A stretch of 64,000 bases of DNA, taken from Candidatus Sericytochromatia bacterium. Lineage in GTDB: Bacteria > Cyanobacteriota > Sericytochromatia > S15B-MN24 > UBA4093. Location: the NCBI GenBank assembly GCA_036676985.1, contig JAKFBU010000056.1, positions 1 through 64,000 of the forward strand, read 5' to 3'. A program made the translations under genes and the position numbers. Under the pieces are notes generated by a model that did no database searches, was not told the origin of the DNA, and saw nothing but the letters and a program-made list of their open reading frames with translations. Below, in pieces: positions 20,811 to 47,319 of the stretch. The first letter of the stretch is position 1. Every line of letters begins with the position of its first letter.

Positions 20811-22880
20811 ATGGTCGTGAAGCGTTTCAAGAACTATCTTTCCCTGGCTACGGCCCTGCTCCTGGTGGGCTGCCCCGGCGTCCCCGGACCGATCAATACC
20901 AATGGCCAGAATCCTCAGACGGGGACGGCTGATCTGGTCTCCAACAACACGGCAGGCTTCGTCGGATCGGTGCGGGTGCCGGAGACCCTCATCTCCAACA
21001 ACTCGGGCGGCCTCATCTCGAACAACGCCGGGGGTCTGGTCTCCAACAACTCGGGCAGCTACCGGATTGCGGCCCTCGACGAGATTCCGCTCGCCAACTC
21101 CCTCGTTTACCTCTTGAGCCCCAACGAGCACTTCTACACGGACACCAAGGGCCAGCGCTTCGTCACGACCACGGACGCGAGCGGCAGCTACAAGTTCGAC
21201 AAGGTCCTGCCGGAAGGCGCCCAGGTCATCGTCAGCGCCCTGTTGGCAGGCAACCGTCGCATGGTGGGCTACACGCTCGCCGCCAAGGGCGACAACCAGG
21301 TCAACATCAGCGTGGCGACCACCTACGTCGTCGAATTCTTCCGGGCCCAGGCCAAGGCCGCAGGCAAGAACATGTCCGACTACGCGCAGGCCATGGCCAA
21401 GCTGCCGGCACTCGTCACGGAGACGCAGGCGCTGCTCGACGCCGGCAAGCTCCCCCTGCCGGACCTGACCATCGGCAACGCTGGCGCCATGAACAAGGCC
21501 TACTTCGCCGTCTTCGCCGCGCAGAGCAAGACGCTCAGCGACGGATGGGCGGACCTGCTCGGCCATCGGATGATCCCCCTGACCACGGTCGCGGGCAACT
21601 ACGCGCTCGGCTCGCAGCAGGCGGCCGGCGTCCAGGCGACCTCCTTCGGCCTCAACCTGCCGACGGGCGTGGCCGTCGACACCCAGGGCAACGTCTACGT
21701 GGCGGTGCAGCTGCACCACGTGGTCTACAAGATCGCGCCGGACGGCACGACGACGGTACTCGGCAAGTTCCGGGGCGACGGGTCCATCACGACTCCGGTC
21801 ATGGTGCCCGGTCCCGACGCTGTGGACGGGGTGCCGATCGCGGACCTCTCGATCCCCATGCCCCAGGACGTGGCGACCATCGGAGACAACCTGGTCATCG
21901 TGCCGAGCGCCGCCAGCGACGCGACCATCCACAACAACGTCCTGCTCTTCGTCTGCCAGACCACTGGAACCTACTTCGGCAAGCCCATGACCGCGGGCAA
22001 GGTCTACCGGCTGGGGGTGGACAGCGACGAGATCGGAAATGATCCGGTCAGCCGCTTCAAGGACGGCAACGTCTTCACCCAGGCGCGCTTCCGGAGCCCG
22101 CAGGGCGTGGGCACGGATGACGCGGGCAACCTCTTCGTCGCCGATCGCCGCAACAACCTGATCCGGCGCATCGACCTCGAAACCGGTCTGGTCACGACCA
22201 TCGCGGGCAAGCTCACGACCGATGCGGCCGGGACGTACGGCGATCAGCTGGGCAGCACGGCGGCCGTCGAGGGCAGCACGGCCGGCTGGAACGGCATCGA
22301 CAACGGCGACGGCGGCACGGCTGTCGGGGCCGTCATCAACCGGCCCTACGACGTGGCGTGGCGCCGGGTCGGCCCCACCCAGGAGGAGGTCTTCGTCTGG
22401 GAGGGCTTCAACCCGGACCTGGTGCCGGGGACGGCGGCCGCGGACATCATGCTGACGGGCAACGCCATCCGGCGGGTCGCCTTCCCGAGCACCGACCGCA
22501 CGGCGGGCACGATCAGCACGCTCATCGGCGGCAACAAGCAGCGCGGAGACTCGGGTGACGGGGGTCCGGCCGCTTCGGCGCTCATCAAGCTCGTGGATCC
22601 GGCCTTCCCGGACGTGCCGAATGCCGGCATCGCGGTCTCACCGGACGGCAAGTACCTGTATTTCTGCGACTCGCACAACCAGCGCCTGCGCATGGTGGAC
22701 CTCGCGGCGGGCACGGTGCACACGGTCGCCGGCGCGGGAACGGTCGAAGGGGACACGGAGGTCGGGCTGTCCGCCCTCAAGGACGTCTCGGGGCTCGCGG
22801 TAGACGCGCACGGCAACGTGTACTTCGCCGACGCCATCTCGAACGTGGTCCGGCGGATCACCTACCAGTACGGCCGGTAA
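20811..22880 (+). CDS. paralogous lipoprotein with ISNNxGG repeats and NHL beta-propeller
   Basis: Lipobox LVGC; LISNNSGGLISNNAGGLVSNNSGSYRIAAL; NHL blades (PTGVAVD..GNVYV, FVADRRNNLIRRI). Confidence 0.8.
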   Translation: MVVKRFKNYLSLATALLLVGCPGVPGPINTNGQNPQTGTADLVSNNTAGFVGSVRVPETLISNNSGGLISNNAGGLVSNNSGSYRIAALDEIPLANSLVYLLSPNEHFYTDTKGQRFVTTTDASGSYKFDKVLPEGAQVIVSALLAGNRRMVGYTLAAKGDNQVNISVATTYVVEFFRAQAKAAGKNMSDYAQAMAKLPALVTETQALLDAGKLPLPDLTIGNAGAMNKAYFAVFAAQSKTLSDGWADLLGHRMIPLTTVAGNYALGSQQAAGVQATSFGLNLPTGVAVDTQGNVYVAVQLHHVVYKIAPDGTTTVLGKFRGDGSITTPVMVPGPDAVDGVPIADLSIPMPQDVATIGDNLVIVPSAASDATIHNNVLLFVCQTTGTYFGKPMTAGKVYRLGVDSDEIGNDPVSRFKDGNVFTQARFRSPQGVGTDDAGNLFVADRRNNLIRRIDLETGLVTTIAGKLTTDAAGTYGDQLGSTAAVEGSTAGWNGIDNGDGGTAVGAVINRPYDVAWRRVGPTQEEVFVWEGFNPDLVPGTAAADIMLTGNAIRRVAFPSTDRTAGTISTLIGGNKQRGDSGDGGPAASALIKLVDPAFPDVPNAGIAVSPDGKYLYFCDSHNQRLRMVDLAAGTVHTVAGAGTVEGDTEVGLSALKDVSGLAVDAHGNVYFADAISNVVRRITYQYGR

Positions 22881-22923: not shown

Positions 22924-22936
22924 GACAGCTATTTCG

Positions 22937-22984
22937 CCCCCCCCTTCCCCCCCTGCTTCGCAAGGGGGGGAAGGGGGGGTCAAA
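22937..22984. repeat. stand-alone REP-like palindrome, same family as the DUF559 cassette flanks
   Basis: C8-TT-C7-TGCTTCGCA-A-G7-AA-G7-TCAAA. Matches 45206-45237 and the G7AAG7TCAAA end at 44850-44870. Confidence 0.85.
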
Positions 22985-23005
22985 CGAGTCGCCCCTCCGG
23001 CCGCC

Positions 23006-23737
23006 TCAGATCCCCGCCCCATGGATGAAGTCATCCACCTCGCCAATCGGCGTCGGACGCTGGCCGTTCAGCCGCGCCCCCAGGGCCGGCTCCAGGGGCT
23101 CCGTCCCCGTGGAGGCCTGAATGGCCTCCACGGTGGCCTCGAGCTGGTAGATCCGATCCGCCAGGGCCTTGATGGCCTCCGCCTCGGGATCCGGATTGAC
23201 CGCCTTCGACTCCTCGACGGGCTCGCCCTTGATGAAGACCACCCGCCCCGGAATCCCCACCACCGTCGCATGGGGCGGCACGTCCCGCAGGACCACCGAG
23301 TTGGCCCCCACCCGCGCGTGGTCCCCCAGCGTGATGTTACCGATCACCTTGGCACCCGCCCCCACGATGACCCCGTTGCCGAGGGTGGGATGGCGCTTGC
23401 CGCACTCCTTGCCCGTACCGCCCAGGGTGACGCCGTGGTAAATGAGGCAGTCGTCCCCCACCACCGCCGTCTCCCCGATCACCACGCCCATGCCGTGGTC
23501 GATGAAGAGCCGCTTCCCGATCCGGGCCCCCGGATGGATCTCGATGCCCGTCACGAACCGGGCGACCTGCATCATGGCCCGCGGGAAGAAAGGCACCTTC
23601 CGGCCATGCAGCCAATGCGCCACGCGATAGATGGCCAAGACATGGACCGAGGGGTAGCAGAGCACCACCTCGAGCCAGCTCTTGGCCGCCGGATCCTGCT
23701 TCAGGATGGAACGAACGGACTCTCCGAAGTCTCCCAC
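23006..23737 (-). CDS. cysE: serine O-acetyltransferase
   Basis: DPAA, TGIEIHPGA, FIDHGMGVVIGET, GVTLGGTG..KRHP and VVGIPGR motifs. Confidence 0.96.
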   Translation of the reverse strand: MGDFGESVRSILKQDPAAKSWLEVVLCYPSVHVLAIYRVAHWLHGRKVPFFPRAMMQVARFVTGIEIHPGARIGKRLFIDHGMGVVIGETAVVGDDCLIYHGVTLGGTGKECGKRHPTLGNGVIVGAGAKVIGNITLGDHARVGANSVVLRDVPPHATVVGIPGRVVFIKGEPVEESKAVNPDPEAEAIKALADRIYQLEATVEAIQASTGTEPLEPALGARLNGQRPTPIGEVDDFIHGAGI

Positions 23738-42112: not shown

Positions 42113-42175
42113 TCTCAGCCGACAGGCTTACGAATTCCCGGCAGAGGATGTGCCCCCCTTGAGCCCCACAAAAAT

Positions 42176-42232
42176 CCGTTTGTCTTGAGCCAGGTCGAAA
42201 GCATGTCCAGAGCTTGTCGAAGGGGCAAACGG
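42176..42232. repeat. degenerate second REP-like family element
   Basis: CCGTTTG...CAAACGG inverted ends enclose two related units, GTCTTGAGCCAGGTCGAAAG and GTCCAGAGCTTGTCGAAGG. Confidence 0.5.
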
Positions 42233-42241
42233 TTCCTTATC

Positions 42242-44074: not shown

Positions 44075-44213
44075 TTAAGTACGCGGTAAGAATCGGAAAA
44101 GGTTGAAGCAAGCAGGTTATGGAGGGTTGGGGAGGGGTTAAATTTAAGCGTTTTTGACAAGTCGTTAACAGGTCTTCTGGATAACCGGTATGTAAGGTCC
44201 GAGGAGGTTGGCG

Positions 44214-44753
44214 ATGATGTTCGATGGCTTGCTGAAGGGACAACCGATCAACCAGGTCTTCAGCAAGGCCGTTCGTCCGTTCGCGGCCTCGGAGGCACAG
44301 GGCCAGCAGGCGCTGCAGGCGAATGCCGTCCAGTCGTCGGCGGTGCTGCCCGCTCAGATCCAGGATTTGAACGAGGGTCAGAGCGCCCAGTTCCAGCGCA
44401 AGAGTGCCGAGTACTTCGGCAAGCTGGTGGCGCAGGGCCGGATCAATCCCCGCACGGTCACCAAGGAAGAGTTCGTCGTCAAGGCGGAGCCTTTGGCGAC
44501 GAAGGACCCGTTTTCGTTTGATTGGTTGGAGACGGCGAAGCGTTTGCTGTCGGCGTTCACGATGGTGGCGGACGTTCGCATCTCGGGCAACCGGGAGCGG
44601 GTGGAGCGCGAGGAAGCGCTGCATCAGCTGCAGCAGGTGCGCGAGATCGGGCTGAAGCAGGTGGAGGCTCGTCGCTCGGTGATGGGCCGGGACCAGATGC
44701 TCATCAGCCCGGCGGCCTTGGCCGTGTCGCGCGAGCGGGCGATCAAGCGCTAG
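44214..44753 (+). CDS. hypothetical helical protein with C-terminal D.x.IS.AA motif
   Basis: RBS GAGGAGG; open frame of about 180 codons ending DQMLISPAALAVS. Confidence 0.7.
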   Translation: MMFDGLLKGQPINQVFSKAVRPFAASEAQGQQALQANAVQSSAVLPAQIQDLNEGQSAQFQRKSAEYFGKLVAQGRINPRTVTKEEFVVKAEPLATKDPFSFDWLETAKRLLSAFTMVADVRISGNRERVEREEALHQLQQVREIGLKQVEARRSVMGRDQMLISPAALAVSRERAIKR

Positions 44754-44817
44754 TAACGAACTTACGGTAAAATATCAACCATCACTCCATCCCCCTGCTT
44801 TGCAGGGGGATAATTCC

Positions 44818-45242
44818 TTATGCCCCCCTTGCCGAAGGCAGGGGGGGAAGGGGGGGAAGGGGGGGTCAAATGGACAGCGTCCGCGTGAGAGCCAGAGAGT
44901 TAAGAAGAGACATGACCGAGCCCGAATACAGGCTCTGGCACGCGCTCAAGCACAACCAGTTAGGCGCCAAGTTCCGCCGCCAGGCACCAAAGGGCCCGTA
45001 CATCTTGGATTTCTACTGCCCGCAACACAAGCTCGTGATCGAAGTCGATGGTGAGTCGCATGCCATGGATTCCCGTGATGAACGGAGAGACGCCTGGCTG
45101 ACGAATCAGGGGTTTCGCGTGCTCCGATTCTGGAACCACGACATCATGCGCAACTTGGACGGAGTGGTGGCGGTGATTTATCGTGAGCTGCGAGGTGGCG
45201 GTTAACCCCCCCTTCCCCCACTGCTTCGCAAGGGGGGCATAA
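44818..45242. mobile_element. putative mini-element: DUF559 nuclease gene bracketed by palindromic inverted repeats
   Basis: Left TTATGCCCCCCTTGCCGAAGGCAG7AAG7AAG7TCAA; right, reverse-complemented, TTATGCCCCCCTTGCGAAGCAGTG5AAG7TTAA. Extra hairpin ATCCCCCTGC-TTT-GCAGGGGGAT at 44789-44811. Confidence 0.65.
44870..45205 (+). CDS. DUF559 (Vsr-like) endonuclease domain protein
   Basis: RARELRR.MT..E..LW, KFRRQ.P.GPYILDF, LVIEVDG..H and RD..L...G.RVLRFWN motifs. Confidence 0.93.
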   Translation: MDSVRVRARELRRDMTEPEYRLWHALKHNQLGAKFRRQAPKGPYILDFYCPQHKLVIEVDGESHAMDSRDERRDAWLTNQGFRVLRFWNHDIMRNLDGVVAVIYRELRGGG

Positions 45243-45280
45243 AGCGTTTCCCTGTGGGAATATTTTTGGTGGTTTTTTCC

Positions 45281-46477
45281 CTAGAATGCCTTCAACACCT
45301 CGGCCAGGCGCTCGGCGGCGAGGTGCAGCTCCGCCTCCGTGTTCAAGATGTCCGGGCACAACCGCAGATACCCGCTCCGGGCATCCGTGTTCACGCCCTC
45401 GGCATGCAGCGCCTTCGACACGTCCGCCGCCCGCGCATGCCGCACCGTCACGAACGCCCCCCGGTCCGGACGTGCCCCGACCGCTGCGACGCCGCGCTCC
45501 GCGAGCGCCCCCACCAAGATCGACTGCTGGTGCAGCGAGTAGGTCCGCAAACGACCCACCCCCAGCTCCCACACCAGCTCCAGACCCGCCCGGGCCTGGA
45601 ACAACGGCAGGATCGGCGGCGTCGACTCGAGAAAGGCATCCCCGCCCACCCCGAATTCCGGCACCTCCGGACGCCCGTAGCGGAACGGCTCCTTTTTGGC
45701 GAACCAGCCCGTGTCCAGGGTCGACATCCCCGCGTCCAGGTGACGCGGATGTACGTACAGCCAGCACGCCCCCGGCCCGCCGCGCAGGTACTTGTAGCTG
45801 CCCCCGATGGCGAAGTCCGCGTTCAGCGCCCCTACGTCCACCGGCACCGTCCCCACCGCATGGTAGAGATCCACCAACACCCGCGCCCCATGCCGATGCG
45901 CCGCCGCGACCACCCGATCCAGGCCCTCGACCACCTGACCGGTCACGAACATGACCATCGACACGACCACCAGGTCCGTCGCGTCGTCGATGGCCGCCAC
46001 CAGGTCGTCCGCCCGGAACTCCCCGGCCGCGTCCGGCTCCACGTAGACCAGGTCCACGCGCCGATGCTCCCCATACACCTTCAGGATGAAGTCGATGGAG
46101 TCGAACTCGCCCCGGGTCGTGACCACCTTGATCCGGTCCCGGTACGTGTTGAGCACCGCCCGCAGGCCCTGGCCCGCGCTCGTCTTGGGCACGATGCAGT
46201 CCGGACGGGACGCGCCCAAGAGGCCCGCCACCCGGCCCCGGAAGGCCGACATGGCCTCCAACCAAGGCTCCCAGGCCCCGTCCATGTCCCGGTACCACAG
46301 GTCCATAGCCTCCTGGACGTCCTGGGCCGCGCGATCCGGCGGACGACCCAGCGAGTGGTTCGCCAGGTAAACCTCCTCGCGCGCGAGCACCCGCGAGAAC
46401 AGGGGATGCACGTGCTCCTCGAGGGCAGCCTCGGTCAACAGGTGCGGGCCCAGCGCCCGGACGGCCGCATGGATCAT
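45281..46477 (-). CDS. kynU: kynureninase
   Basis: [12 protein letters not shown] and GGSYKYL.GGPG motifs; ATGA-coupled to kynA. Confidence 0.85.
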
Positions 46478-47319
46478 CGGACGCCGATCTGCGTGCGCAC
46501 GTCGAACAGCTCCGGGAAGAACGTCAGATCCAGCGCCCGCTTGAGGAAGTCCACCCCCGACGAGCCGCCCGTGCCATGCTTGAACCCGATGGTGCGCATG
46601 ACCGTCCGCATGTGGCGGAAACGCCACTGCTGGAACTGATCCTCGACGTCCACCAGCTTCTCGCACATCTCGTAGGCGTCCCAGTAGCGCTGCGGATCCT
46701 CGTAGATCTGCTTGAAGACGGCGATGAGCTCGGGCTGGCGCTCGTAGGGCTGCGACCAGTCCCGCTCGACGCAGGCGGCCGGGATGGCGAAGCCCCGGCG
46801 GTGCAGATGCCGCAGGAACTCGTCGTACAGGCTCGGCGCCTGGAGGACGGCCTCGAGCTCCGCGTACGTCGCGGCGTCATGGGCGAAGACCTGGATCAGC
46901 TGCGGGTGCTTGTTGCCCAGGAGGAACTCGATGGCCCGGTACTGCGCCGACTGGAAGCCAGAGGCCGGGCCCAGGACGTGCCGGAACTCCATGTACTCGC
47001 TCGGCGTCAGCGTCGCGAGCACGCCCCATTGCTCCGTGAGCTGGTGCTGGATGTTCTTGACGCGGGTGAGCACCTTGAAGCAGGGATCCAGCTGGTCGGC
47101 ACGCACGAAGGCGATCGCCGCCCTCAGCTCGTGCAGGATGAGCTTCATCCACAGCTCCGAGGTCTGGTGCTGGATGATGAAGAGCATCTCATCGTGATGC
47201 GGCGGATCGCTCAAGGGCTTCTGGGCGCTCAGGAGCTCGTCCAGGCACAGATAGCCCGAGTAGGACATGCGATCGCGCAGATCGAGGGCAATGCCGGTTT
47301 CCAGGTCGCGCTTGTTCAT
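46474..47319 (-). CDS. kynA: tryptophan 2,3-dioxygenase
   Basis: [30 protein letters not shown] and GTGGSSG motifs. Confidence 0.96.

What the first reader, a model, noticed from the sequence alone, without database searches (positions are those of the whole stretch)
44214..46477. Strand-asymmetric composition around the palindromes, consistent with recurrent DNA breaks
Seen by eye, not computed: the top strand is G/T-rich left of each repeat and C/A-rich right of it. Gene 44214 uses unusual TTG, GAT, TTT and CGT codons, and the kynU 3' region is C/A-rich on top, unlike other minus-strand genes. Inside the DUF559 gene the first half is C/A-rich and the second half G/T-rich, as expected between two repeats. 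The same polarity appears around 22937. Known: 5'-to-3' resection exposes 3' single-stranded tails prone to C-to-T change, which predicts this polarity. Inference: the repeats are repeatedly cut or processed, by the DUF559 nuclease or a host hairpin nuclease, making them local mutation hotspots.
Basis: partly seen in the sequence, partly recalled or inferred. Interest (0 to 1): 0.78.

Follow-up and report, generated by a model that had tools for sequence, protein, structure and literature searches.

The report
Strand skew flips at palindromic repeats
In this uncultured bacterium, silent codon positions switch from G-rich to C-rich exactly at hundreds of small palindromic repeats and the effect fades over about 500 bases, a footprint that looks like repeated DNA breakage and repair and appears not to have been described in bacteria.

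Summary
The three genes abutting the window's repeats lie at the 99th-100th percentile of 4161 genes for coding-strand G-over-C excess at fourfold sites. Over 87 loci of this C7/G7 family, the strand running 5'->3' toward the repeat becomes G-rich in genes of either orientation. The effect decays exponentially, length 545 +/- 41 bp, and 75 of 83 loci show the polarity.

Repeat-free tandem and divergent junctions show nothing; convergent ones show about a quarter of the effect. Two unrelated repeat families show it more weakly and a fourth not at all. It is derived: orthologues in genera without the repeats are normal.

The polarity fits a break-and-resection process. However, the change is C-to-G and A-to-G, not C-to-T. 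Synonymous divergence from a sister species is not raised: 1.09-fold, 0.92-1.28. DUF559 is not required.

My best reading is recurrent end-initiated repair with a strand-biased outcome. The closest analogue is the asymmetry at human meiotic break hotspots. The scan has often noted DUF559-palindrome pairings on other DNA, but not this skew.

The parts
22932..22993 (.). F1 repeat, short form: one long hairpin, C7TTC7-TGC TTC GCA-AG7AAG7
   Evidence: Read. It folds as single-stranded DNA at -24.5 kcal/mol; 0 of 200 shuffles fold as well. It is a member of the 87-locus family F1.
20811..22880 (+). Left flank gene of the 22937 repeat, transcribed toward it; mild excess of G
   Evidence: Coding GC4 skew is -0.097, 76th percentile. 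The last 750 bp hold 69 G against 54.8 expected, of 137 sites.
23006..23737 (-). Right flank gene of the 22937 repeat (hexapeptide transferase), transcribed toward it; extreme excess of G on its coding strand
   Evidence: Coding GC4 skew is +0.217, 99th percentile. Pfam Hexapep matches at E=8e-13 on this strand. The top strand holds 54 G against 82.0 expected, of 137 sites.
42156..42239 (.). Copy of the unrelated repeat family F2, in a convergent junction
   Evidence: The family as a whole shows the same footprint at lower amplitude: A=0.182, decay length 444 bp.
44208..44753 (+). Small gene of no known family, transcribed toward the repeats; extreme excess of G
   Evidence: Coding GC4 skew is +0.268, 99th percentile. 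It has no Pfam match. Its orthologue in the sister species G001 has +0.181 and also ends at an F1 hairpin.
44786..44866 (.). F1 units left of DUF559: a degenerate hairpin (44789-44811), then a hairpin followed by three G7 runs (44823-44865)
   Evidence: It folds at -24.5 kcal/mol, z=-3.1.
44870..45205 (+). DUF559 (Vsr-like) endonuclease gene, bracketed by inverted F1 units. The first half is C/A-leaning and the second half G-rich.
   Evidence: Pfam DUF559 matches at E=2.6e-37. It is one of 2 copies in the genome, and both abut F1. The 56%-identical gene at the same place in G004 is bracketed by that genome's own repeat family.
45206..45242 (.). F1 half unit right of DUF559 (C7TTC5 run plus hairpin); it starts directly after the stop codon
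   Evidence: On its own it is a weak hairpin: -7.7 kcal/mol, z=-1.0.
45281..46477 (-). kynU (kynureninase), transcribed toward the repeats. It has the most G-skewed coding strand in the genome, with a gradient that falls away from the repeat.
   Evidence: GC4 skew is +0.427, 100th percentile. Pfam Aminotran_5 and KYNU_C match. Orthologues in 6 genomes of other genera run from -0.03 to -0.28. At aligned sites, G/(G+C) is 0.75-0.78 here against 0.45-0.50 in the outgroups.
46474..47319 (-). Tryptophan 2,3-dioxygenase gene, 1.2-2.1 kb from the repeat: the tail of the effect
   Evidence: GC4 skew is +0.008, 91st percentile.

Best explanation
The palindromic repeats are sites where DNA ends or nicks arise again and again. 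This applies to family F1 and, more weakly, to the unrelated families F2 and F3.

Repair starts at the element and runs outward for a few hundred bases. On each side, the strand that runs 5'->3' toward the element is kept as the 3' tail or template, while its partner is removed and re-made or paired with another copy. The outcome of that repair is strand-biased: on the kept strand, G is favoured over C and over A. Over evolutionary time this rewrites silent sites with opposite sign on the two sides.

Because the substitution rate is not visibly raised and the change is mostly C<->G, I think the bias lies mainly in how mismatches or lesions are resolved. That would be a strand-asymmetric, conversion-like fixation bias, for example unequal handling of C.C and G.G mismatches in heteroduplex of fixed polarity. 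I do not think it is hypermutation of exposed single strands.

Shown: the footprint, its polarity, its decay, its specificity to certain repeat families, and that it is derived. Inferred: breaks, resection, heteroduplex and the source of the bias. The cutting enzyme is unknown. DUF559 may be the partner of F1 but is not needed for the footprint.
For: 1. Polarity and symmetry. Excess G on the toward-running strand: left flanks 76 of 85 positive, right flanks 75 of 85 of the mirrored sign, 75 of 83 loci with D>0. Mann-Whitney p=4e-33 against all repeat-free junctions and 1e-19 against convergent ones.

2. It follows the DNA strand, not transcription. Genes transcribed away from the repeat become more C-rich, -0.409 against a -0.20 baseline. 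In tandem junctions the toward-facing and away-facing flanks shift alike, 0.046/0.066 and 0.108/0.076.

3. Clean exponential decay. F1 has A=0.251 and L=545+/-41 bp; F2 0.182 and 444+/-44; F3 0.154 and 368+/-59. It is also seen within single long genes: 18 of 19 have proximal > distal, p=1e-5.

4. It is a regional pressure, not a motif. The log-odds shift is +0.58 to +0.88 in all 8 fourfold codon families and +0.66 to +0.92 in all 4 next-base contexts. No single 5-8-mer stands out.

5. It is derived. At aligned sites within 750 bp, G/(G+C) is 0.47-0.49 here against 0.39-0.40 in genera lacking the repeats, and equal beyond 1 kb. This holds at 5 of 6 loci with near data, plus kynU.

6. No rate rise. 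The near/far ratio is 1.085 (0.916-1.281). The predictions are 1.01-1.02 for a fixation-type or symmetric bias, 1.29 for C-to-G up only, and 0.80 for G-to-C down only.

7. The gains are of G, from C and from A. A/(A+G) at two-fold sites is 0.033-0.055 against 0.078-0.09 in controls.

8. Known analogues:
- At human meiotic break hotspots the flanking 2 kb shows C>N and A>N on the strand that is single-stranded left of the break, and the complement on the right. C>G, A>G and C>A peak 700-800 bp out (PMC7615360, passages read).
- Break processing sets the strand bias of mismatch resolution (PMC9001825, abstract).

9. The loci are structurally unstable among close strains. A 106-bp core is replaced by an 8-nt loop in 2 of 4 runs, and run lengths vary.

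10. MutS is present.

11. The footprint is replicated at 14 loci in the sister species. It is weakly present around a different, young family in another genus.
Against: There is no direct evidence of breaks, ends or single-stranded DNA. The laid runs are contigs, and none of them showed places where many molecules begin or end; contigs cannot show such places.

The direction of a C.C versus G.G repair bias cannot be predicted from first principles. Simple mismatch-repair logic gives either sign.

The rate test is of moderate power. The upper bound of 1.28 just touches the 1.29 predicted for a purely mutational C-to-G rise, so a mutational origin is disfavoured but not excluded. A past burst that is now relaxing is also not excluded.

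Conversion bias needs mismatched partners, such as several chromosome copies or imported DNA. That is unknown for this organism.

Family F4 also has a hairpin and inverted ends yet shows nothing: D=0.020, 16 of 28 positive. Being a palindrome is therefore not enough.

The effect is about twice as large at convergent as at tandem junctions, which I cannot explain. Repeat-free convergent junctions keep a small effect of their own, D=0.049.

Most of the sister-species loci are orthologous to loci here: at least 8 of 14 by my comparison of coordinates. That replication is therefore not independent.
Confidence: 0.5

Rival explanations
1. Breaks at the repeats expose 3' single-stranded tails, cytosine deamination (C-to-T) on them makes the flanks hypermutable, and the skew is the residue.
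For: The polarity, symmetry and decay are the same as under my explanation. There is a small rise of T/(C+T) at two-fold sites in the first 250 bp, 0.156 against about 0.13. Gene 44208 has an excess of TTG and CGT codons. Yeast inverted repeats raise mutation in flanking genes through resection (PMC3681665, abstract).
Against: T at fourfold sites does not rise, staying at 0.035-0.043 at all distances, while C and G exchange by 0.2. Transition differences between the sister species are flat, 0.055-0.074. Total and C/G divergence are also flat, ratio 1.085 (0.916-1.281). Raw TA skew around the repeats equals that of controls.
Confidence: 0.12
2. This is target choice. The elements insert into, or survive only in, places that already have a terminus-like skew switch, so the repeats are markers of the skew and not its cause.
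For: The families sit mostly in convergent junctions: F1 57 of 87, F2 53 of 75, F3 47 of 65. Repeat-free convergent junctions have a small inflection of the same sign, D=0.049-0.066.
Against: Orthologous genes in genera without the repeats have baseline composition at the very same aligned sites, 0.39-0.40 against 0.47-0.49; for kynU 0.45-0.50 against 0.75-0.78. Tandem-junction loci show the footprint too, although tandem controls have none: D=0.17-0.21 against 0.003-0.008. The gradient is centred on the element and exponential. A young family with many identical copies in G004 shows only a weak gradient.
Confidence: 0.05
3. This is selection on function. G-rich RNA or DNA heading toward the element and C-rich heading away would be selected, for example for Rho loading on read-through transcripts, for R-loop-assisted termination, or for oriented Chi-like or KOPS-like words.
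For: RNA leaving the element would be C-rich and G-poor, as Rho prefers (this preference is my own knowledge). The elements lie at gene ends. The absence of a rate rise fits a fixation bias.
Against: The shift is equal in all 8 codon families and all 4 next-base contexts, and no oligomer accounts for it. It reaches 1-1.5 kb into coding DNA with an exponential profile. It needs a per-site bias of about e^0.9 at hundreds of silent sites per locus, which is implausible for such functions. No RecC was found, so there is no RecBCD-type Chi system.
Confidence: 0.08
4. This is transcription from the elements. Outward promoters in the repeats would drive transcripts into both flanks, and the genome's usual transcription-linked bias (C over G on the non-template strand) would be superimposed.
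For: Coding strands in this genome are C-rich at fourfold sites, and more so in ribosomal protein genes: about -0.3 to -0.5 against -0.20. Outward transcription would therefore give the observed sign on both sides.
Against: Short-form F1 copies are about 45 nt of C and G runs with no promoter-like AT-rich hexamers, yet they show the effect at D=0.153. The flanks would need antisense transcription stronger than that of ribosomal protein genes in order to reverse the sign. If the baseline bias is translational selection, antisense RNA has no effect. No RNA run was available to test this.
Confidence: 0.06
5. This is replication. The hairpins would be fork barriers where forks from both sides tend to meet or restart, so each flank is mostly copied as leading strand toward the element, which would give a miniature terminus.
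For: The sign is that of a replication terminus (established knowledge of GC skew). The genome has no consistent replication-linked skew at fourfold sites on its 8 largest contigs. That would fit irregular replication.
Against: A fork-direction effect should extend to the next origin and not die out in 0.5 kb. There are about 230 such loci. The local amplitude, 0.2-0.4 in skew, far exceeds any replication skew seen here, which is at most about 0.1 and inconsistent.
Confidence: 0.07

Closest known systems
Strand-asymmetric mutation footprint at human meiotic double-strand-break hotspots (Hinch et al. 2023, PMC7615360; passages read)
   Same: Both show a sign flip at the break site. Both affect the strand that is single-stranded after 5'->3' resection, and the effect is confined to 1-2 kb. 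C>G and A>G are among the asymmetric classes, which matches the gain of G from C and A here.
   Different: There, de novo mutations and a raised rate were measured at mapped breaks. Here there is only an equilibrium composition, no measurable rate rise and no mapped breaks. The organism is a bacterium, the centre is a palindromic repeat, and the decay is shorter, 0.37-0.55 kb.
Fragile inverted repeats that raise mutation in flanking genes in yeast (Saini et al. 2013, PMC3681665; abstract read)
   Same: Hairpin- or cruciform-forming repeats act as break sites whose repair alters flanking genes on both sides.
   Different: In yeast the effect is a rate increase reaching 8 kb and depends on Pol zeta and Sae2. 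Here no rate increase is seen, and the footprint is a directional G/C exchange within about 1 kb.
REP/BIME elements with RAYT transposases, and the Ssn nuclease family with its NTS/SRM hairpin repeats (REP/RAYT from my own knowledge; Ssn: Chenal et al. 2025, PMC11893778, abstract read)
   Same: These are families of short extragenic palindromes, mostly behind convergent genes. A small nuclease gene is bracketed by inverted copies of the genome's own family.
   Different: No Y1/HUH transposase is present. The bracketed gene is a PD-(D/E)XK Vsr-like DUF559, not GIY-YIG or HUH. I know of no flank skew reported for these systems, and my searches found none.
Replication-associated GC skew switch at the terminus (established knowledge)
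   Same: The sign pattern is the same: G-rich on the top strand to the left, C-rich to the right. It is visible at silent sites.
   Different: A terminus occurs once per replicon and the skew extends over whole replichores. Here there are about 230 loci, each decaying in about 0.5 kb, in a genome without a consistent replication skew.
GC-biased gene conversion, and break-directed strand bias of mismatch resolution (gBGC from my own knowledge; Pokusaeva et al. 2022, PMC9001825, abstract read)
   Same: Both are a fixation-like bias tied to recombination initiation. It changes composition without a matching rise in rate and acts on all neutral sites regionally.
   Different: gBGC favours G and C over A and T symmetrically on both strands. 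Here G is favoured over C on one strand, so the bias is strand-asymmetric. This has not been described for bacteria in the papers my searches reached.

Membership tests
Break-hotspot strand asymmetry (as at meiotic DSB hotspots) | The composition or mutation asymmetry changes sign at the centre and is mirrored on the two sides | tested here: met
   Left flanks: 76 of 85 have an excess of G. Right flanks: 75 of 85 have the mirrored sign. D>0 in 75 of 83 loci. A gene-call-free test on raw GC skew gives 71 of 85, p=1e-10.
Break-hotspot strand asymmetry (as at meiotic DSB hotspots) | The effect is confined to resection-tract distances and decays with distance | tested here: met
   Exponential fits give decay lengths of 545, 444 and 368 bp for F1, F2 and F3.
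Break-hotspot strand asymmetry (as at meiotic DSB hotspots) | The local mutation or substitution rate is raised | tested here: not met
   The near/far ratio of fourfold-site distance to the sister species is 1.085 (0.916-1.281), over 21,810 sites and 41 loci.
Break-hotspot strand asymmetry (as at meiotic DSB hotspots) | Physical breaks or ends are mapped at the centre | not testable with these tools
   Only contigs of public runs were available. They cannot show molecule ends.
REP/RAYT system (REPtron) | A RAYT (Y1 HUH transposase) gene flanked by inverted REPs | tested here: not met
   Pfam Y1_Tnp (PF01797) gives 0 matches in the genome, while the control rings in 6 of 14 genomes.
REP/RAYT system (REPtron) | Short imperfect palindromes, many copies, extragenic, mostly at gene 3' ends | tested here: met
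   F1 has 87 loci, 57 of them in convergent junctions. 8 of 202 hairpin units lie inside genes.
DUF559-palindrome cassette (noted repeatedly by this scan on other DNA; unpublished AI notes) | A DUF559 gene bracketed by inverted copies of a hairpin-plus-G-run unit that is also scattered gene-free | tested here: met
   In the window, a hairpin plus G7AAG7AAG7 precedes the ORF, and C7TTC5 plus a hairpin follows it. 2 of 2 DUF559 genes abut F1. The 56%-identical gene at the same place in G004 is bracketed by inverted copies of G004's own 58-hit family.
DUF559-palindrome cassette (noted repeatedly by this scan on other DNA; unpublished AI notes) | The nuclease acts on the repeat | not testable with these tools
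   No assay was possible. By presence and absence: DUF559 was found in G000, G004 and G008. It was not found with this query in G007, G003, G005 or G001, and G001 is rich in F1 but only 87% complete.
Cut-and-paste MITE | Terminal inverted repeats with a target-site duplication and a related transposase-bearing parent | tested here: inconclusive
   Inverted ends are present. I saw no clear duplication: the flanks are often themselves inverted repeats, as at C1:42740 and C4:42453. I did not search for a parent element. A long-versus-short form polymorphism exists among strains.
Replication terminus / dif-type skew switch | A single switch per replicon with replichore-wide skew | tested here: not met
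   About 230 loci in three families, each decaying within about 1.5 kb. There is no consistent replication skew.

The most novel reading that the evidence does not exclude
REP-like palindromic repeats would be the bacterium's endogenous recombination-initiation hotspots, a bacterial counterpart of meiotic hotspots. Repair from them would carry a strand-asymmetric biased gene conversion: G over C and A on the 3'-tailed strand, plausibly from unequal handling of C.C and G.G mismatches. This would rewrite silent sites for about 0.5 kb on each side.

If so, break sites, their polarity and their tract lengths could be read from a single genome sequence. Part of bacterial codon usage would be set by neighbouring repeats. 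DUF559 nucleases would be one of the enzymes that create such sites.
Probability: 0.3. Interest if true: 0.92.

Novelty: new variant of a known kind. Interest (0 to 1): 0.8.

Why it matters
Strand asymmetries in bacterial genomes are ascribed to replication and transcription. Here a third source is visible. It is local, centred on small palindromic repeats, stronger than either of the others in this genome, and able to push ordinary housekeeping genes such as kynU to the extreme of the genome's codon-usage range.

If it reflects recurrent breakage and biased repair, several things follow:
- It gives REP-like repeats, whose function has been argued over for decades, a measurable activity.
- It offers a sequence-only way to find break-prone sites and repair-tract lengths in uncultured organisms.
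- It warns that atypical codon usage next to such repeats should not be read as horizontal transfer or low expression.
- It gives a concrete, testable link between mismatch-type-specific repair and genome composition.

Tried and rejected
1. A Chi-like or other oriented word as the cause. I compared 5-8-mers on the toward-running strand of 322 flanks with shuffles of the G/C at fourfold sites. This gave only general codon-context preferences and avoidance of G runs, with no dominant word (one search had timed out).

2. Gene-calling error as the cause. It is rejected for two reasons. 34 of 35 genes near repeats that had alignments show mismatch rates in the order pos3 > pos1 >= pos2. The raw, gene-call-free skew gives the same result.

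3. A gene-level cause such as foreign origin or low expression. It is rejected by the gradient within genes, 18 of 19. The lowest-scoring genes reach only about -0.10, not +0.2.

4. Generic G/C-run hairpins. The 47 other C6..G6 hairpin loci show almost no shift.

5. A population test from public runs. Four runs were laid on a 20-kb stretch with four F1 loci, but only 40 of 924 differences were listed, so no position-resolved spectrum could be made. No RNA holder was listed.

6. Search for the repeats elsewhere. An exact F1-B core in the genome collection gave 2 unrelated hits. F1-like hairpins are abundant only in the sister species. The F2 core gave 0 hits in 5 genomes of other genera.

7. 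A test of generality in a distant complete genome (G030, 800 kb fetched). I abandoned it. The genome is 25.7% G+C, my training filter found no genes, and G/C fourfold sites would be too few.

8. An E. coli K-12 stretch, fetched to test REP elements. It carries no REP annotation in this copy and I did not use it.

9. Taxon from kynU relatives. This was uninformative: the best matches are 50-63% identical and spread over several phyla.

10. Literature. Searches for a flank skew at bacterial repeats found nothing relevant. This covers only the open-access library searched.
Full report
**What is there**

The window is contig C56:1-64000 of a 4.68-Mb, 67% G+C draft genome of 79 contigs. Earlier notes of this scan call it a Sericytochromatia genome, that is, a non-photosynthetic relative of cyanobacteria. 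I did not check this.

Around the finding the layout is as follows:
- a small gene of no known family, 44208-44753 (+)
- a cluster of C-run/G-run hairpins, 44786-44866
- a 111-aa DUF559 (Vsr-like) gene, 44870-45205 (+)
- a further C-run-plus-hairpin unit, 45206-45242
- kynU, 45281-46477 (-)
- a tryptophan dioxygenase gene, 46474-47319 (-)

A single long hairpin of the same family, C7TTC7...G7AAG7, lies at 22932-22993 between convergent genes. It folds at -24.5 kcal/mol, and 0 of 200 shuffles fold as well.

**The observation in the window**

I called genes with a codon-likelihood caller of my own. It gives 4161 genes and 88.5% coding. It was later checked: 34 of 35 genes near repeats show mismatch rates in the order pos3 > pos1 >= pos2 against relatives.

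Coding strands in this genome prefer C over G at fourfold sites. The per-gene mean skew is -0.199 with sd 0.163. The genes that abut the repeats are outliers:
- 44208-44753: +0.268, 99th percentile
- kynU: +0.427, 100th percentile
- 23006-23737: +0.217, 99th percentile

Gene 44208 has TA skew 0.000. Of the four codons named, only TTG is clearly in excess, 6 against 1.24 expected.

**Genome-wide test**

The repeat belongs to a family, F1, of 87 loci. Most are MITE-like pairs of hairpins about 100-130 bp apart, in three subfamilies by loop sequence.

Pooling fourfold sites around all loci gives these coding-strand skews:

| Distance from repeat | Genes transcribed toward | Genes transcribed away |
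|---|---|---|
| 0-250 bp | +0.209 | -0.409 |
| 250-500 bp | +0.101 | -0.360 |
| 500-750 bp | -0.038 | -0.329 |
| 750-1000 bp | -0.091 | -0.284 |
| 1-1.5 kb | -0.141 | (not quoted) |
| baseline | about -0.22 | about -0.20 |

So the effect belongs to the DNA strand: the strand running 5'->3' toward the repeat gains G. Per locus, 75 of 83 have the polarity, with Mann-Whitney p=4e-33 against all repeat-free junctions and 1e-19 against convergent ones. Raw GC skew, which needs no gene calls, agrees: left +0.061, right -0.058, in 71 of 85 loci, p=1e-10. Control convergent junctions have the opposite sign, -0.020/+0.029.

In tandem junctions both the toward-facing and the away-facing flank are shifted alike, at 0.05-0.11. 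Convergent junctions reach 0.16-0.18. Within single long genes the end nearest the repeat is G-richer than the far end in 18 of 19 cases.

**Controls**

- Repeat-free tandem and divergent junctions show no shift.
- The 428 repeat-free convergent junctions show a mild shift, -0.107 near the junction. It falls further once other repeat families are removed: D=0.049 for 269 junctions.
- 47 other C6..G6 hairpins show almost nothing.
- The highest-scoring 'repeat-free' junctions turned out to carry two other, unrelated repeat families.

A systematic clustering of intergenic repeats gave four large families:
- F1: D=0.259, 76 of 84 loci positive
- F2: D=0.169, 57 of 69
- F3: D=0.105, 44 of 58
- F4: D=0.020, 16 of 28

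F4 sits mostly upstream of genes and is no younger by copy divergence.

The profiles are clean exponentials, with amplitudes 0.251, 0.182 and 0.154 and decay lengths 545+/-41, 444+/-44 and 368+/-59 bp. The genome has no consistent replication-linked skew at fourfold sites.

**Nature of the change**

- At fourfold sites C falls from 0.575 to 0.373 and G rises from 0.36 to 0.57. A and T stay at 0.02 and 0.04.
- At two-fold sites A/(A+G) drops to 0.033-0.055, against 0.078-0.09 in matched controls. T/(C+T) rises only slightly, 0.156 against about 0.13.
- The log-odds shift is the same in all eight codon families, +0.58 to +0.88, and in all four next-base contexts, +0.66 to +0.92.
- No oligomer accounts for it.
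- Positions 1 and 2 move a little in the same direction.

The strand therefore gains G at the expense of C and A. This is a regional pressure, not selection on a word, and it is not dominated by C-to-T.

**Cause or marker?**

kynU orthologues in six genomes of other genera, none with F1, have normal skews of -0.03 to -0.28.

For six F1 loci chosen systematically (every ninth locus), aligned fourfold sites within 750 bp have G/(G+C) of 0.47-0.49 here against 0.39-0.40 in the outgroups. Beyond 1 kb there is no difference. Five of six loci with near data agree. Sites are counted once per outgroup genome, so the n values are inflated.

The sister species G001 carries F1 in abundance and shows the same gradient at 14 loci. 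At least 8 of those 14 junctions also hold F1 here, by my comparison of coordinates, so this is largely shared ancestry. A different, young family in another genus (58 hits in G004, many identical, 3 weak hits in its congener G007) shows a weak gradient of the same sign.

**Is it a mutation hotspot?**

I aligned 21,810 fourfold sites around 41 repeat loci between this genome and G001. Divergence is flat with distance. The two-state C/G distance is 0.84-0.95 within 400 bp and 0.82-0.83 beyond 1 kb. The ratio is 1.085, with a bootstrap by locus of 0.916-1.281.

Given the observed composition shift, the predicted ratios are:
- 1.29 for a rise in C-to-G alone
- 0.80 for a fall in G-to-C alone
- 1.01-1.02 for a fixation-type or symmetric bias

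All of this is; earlier, smaller versions are. A large rate increase is excluded. A purely mutational origin is disfavoured but not excluded.

**Mechanism**

The polarity, symmetry, independence of transcription and exponential decay are what a process starting at a DNA end or nick in the element would leave, if it proceeds outward with a fixed strand polarity. The closest documented case is the human meiotic hotspot. There the 2 kb flanking the break carries C>N and A>N mutations on the strand that is single-stranded on that side, and C>G and A>G are among the off-centre classes (PMC7615360, passages). Inverted repeats are break sites that alter flanking genes in yeast (PMC3681665, abstract). 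Break processing sets the strand bias of mismatch resolution in mouse cells (PMC9001825, abstract).

The rate is not raised, and the main exchange is between C and G. For that class the two possible heteroduplex mismatches, C.C and G.G, are handled very differently by MutS-type repair (my own knowledge). I therefore favour a strand-asymmetric, conversion-like bias over hypermutation. MutS is present. RecC, an SbcD C-terminal domain and any Y1 transposase were not found.

I cannot say what makes the ends. Candidates are hairpin or cruciform cleavage, a topoisomerase, a transposase, or DUF559 for F1.

**DUF559**

The skew does not need DUF559: F2 and F3 have no such gene beside or between their copies. 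The gene does, however, seem to be tied to F1:
- Both copies in the genome abut F1, each a different subfamily.
- The window copy is framed exactly by inverted hairpin-plus-run units.
- The 56%-identical gene at the same place next to kynU in G004 is framed by inverted copies of G004's own dispersed family.
- G007, a complete congener of G004, has neither that family nor a detectable DUF559.

This scan has noted such DUF559-palindrome pairings many times on other DNA; those are unchecked notes. A DUF559 protein of Caulobacter is described as a Vsr-like mismatch endonuclease that can cause breaks (PMC12907096, passages).

**Limits**

- The gene calls and the two-state model are my own.
- The genome is a metagenome-assembled draft with 5% contamination.
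- No physical evidence for breaks exists.
- Generality outside this family of organisms was not tested: the G030 attempt failed and the E. coli stretch was not used.
- My claim that this is not in print rests on five full-text searches of the open-access library.

Noticed in passing
window 44786-45242; L002 3540-3975 (G004): The DUF559 gene is framed by inverted hairpin-plus-G-run units of the genome's own dispersed family. The 56%-identical gene at the same place in another genus is framed by that genome's different family. DUF559 and that family are both missing from the complete congener G007. This looks like a nuclease-repeat partnership of the REP/RAYT type.
   Followed up: partly
G000:C7:53045-53184 (L137 18376-18515): Close strains in 2 of the 4 runs laid (X2, X5) have the 106-bp core of a long-form F1 element replaced by the 8-nt loop CTCTAGAG. 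So the long (paired) and short (single hairpin) forms interconvert on short time scales. The lengths of the C/G runs also vary (L137 place 1517).
   Followed up: partly
window 42156-42239 and genome-wide: There are two further abundant palindromic families: F2 (75 loci, core GGAACCGTTCG...) and F3 (65 loci, core CGTCATTCTCGCGAAAGCGGGAATCCA...). Both lie mostly in convergent junctions. F2 was not found in 5 genomes of other genera. No partner gene is evident for either.
   Followed up: partly
G000, e.g. C23:134203-134280, C25:29922-30007: Family F4 has 31 loci of about 80 nt, with inverted ends and a GCCGCC..GGCGGC hairpin. It lies mostly upstream of genes in tandem or divergent junctions and has no flank skew. 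It may be a structured RNA or a regulatory element rather than a mobile repeat.
   Followed up: no
G000, 8 largest contigs: Fourfold-site GC skew corrected for gene orientation shows no consistent replication-linked sign along contigs of 190-325 kb.
   Followed up: partly
G000, repeat-free convergent junctions: A small inflection of the same sign remains at 269 convergent junctions free of all recognised repeats (D=0.049). The cause could be lost or unrecognised elements, or a general property of convergent gene ends.
   Followed up: no
flanks of F1/F2 loci genome-wide: The palindrome GCGATCGC is over-represented: 136 against 76.6 expected from shuffles in 241 kb of flanks. From my own knowledge, this octamer is the highly iterated palindrome of cyanobacteria, which would fit the reported affinity of the genome.
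   Followed up: no
G000:C14:1013-14224: Six copies of a 78-nt repeat with a GGCCAGCAG..CTGCTGGCC hairpin are spaced 1.3-6 kb apart on one contig (family 6).
   Followed up: no
G000:C76:664-15351: Ribosomal protein genes prefer C-ending fourfold codons more strongly than average (about -0.3 to -0.5 against -0.20). The baseline coding-strand skew is therefore linked to expression.
   Followed up: partly
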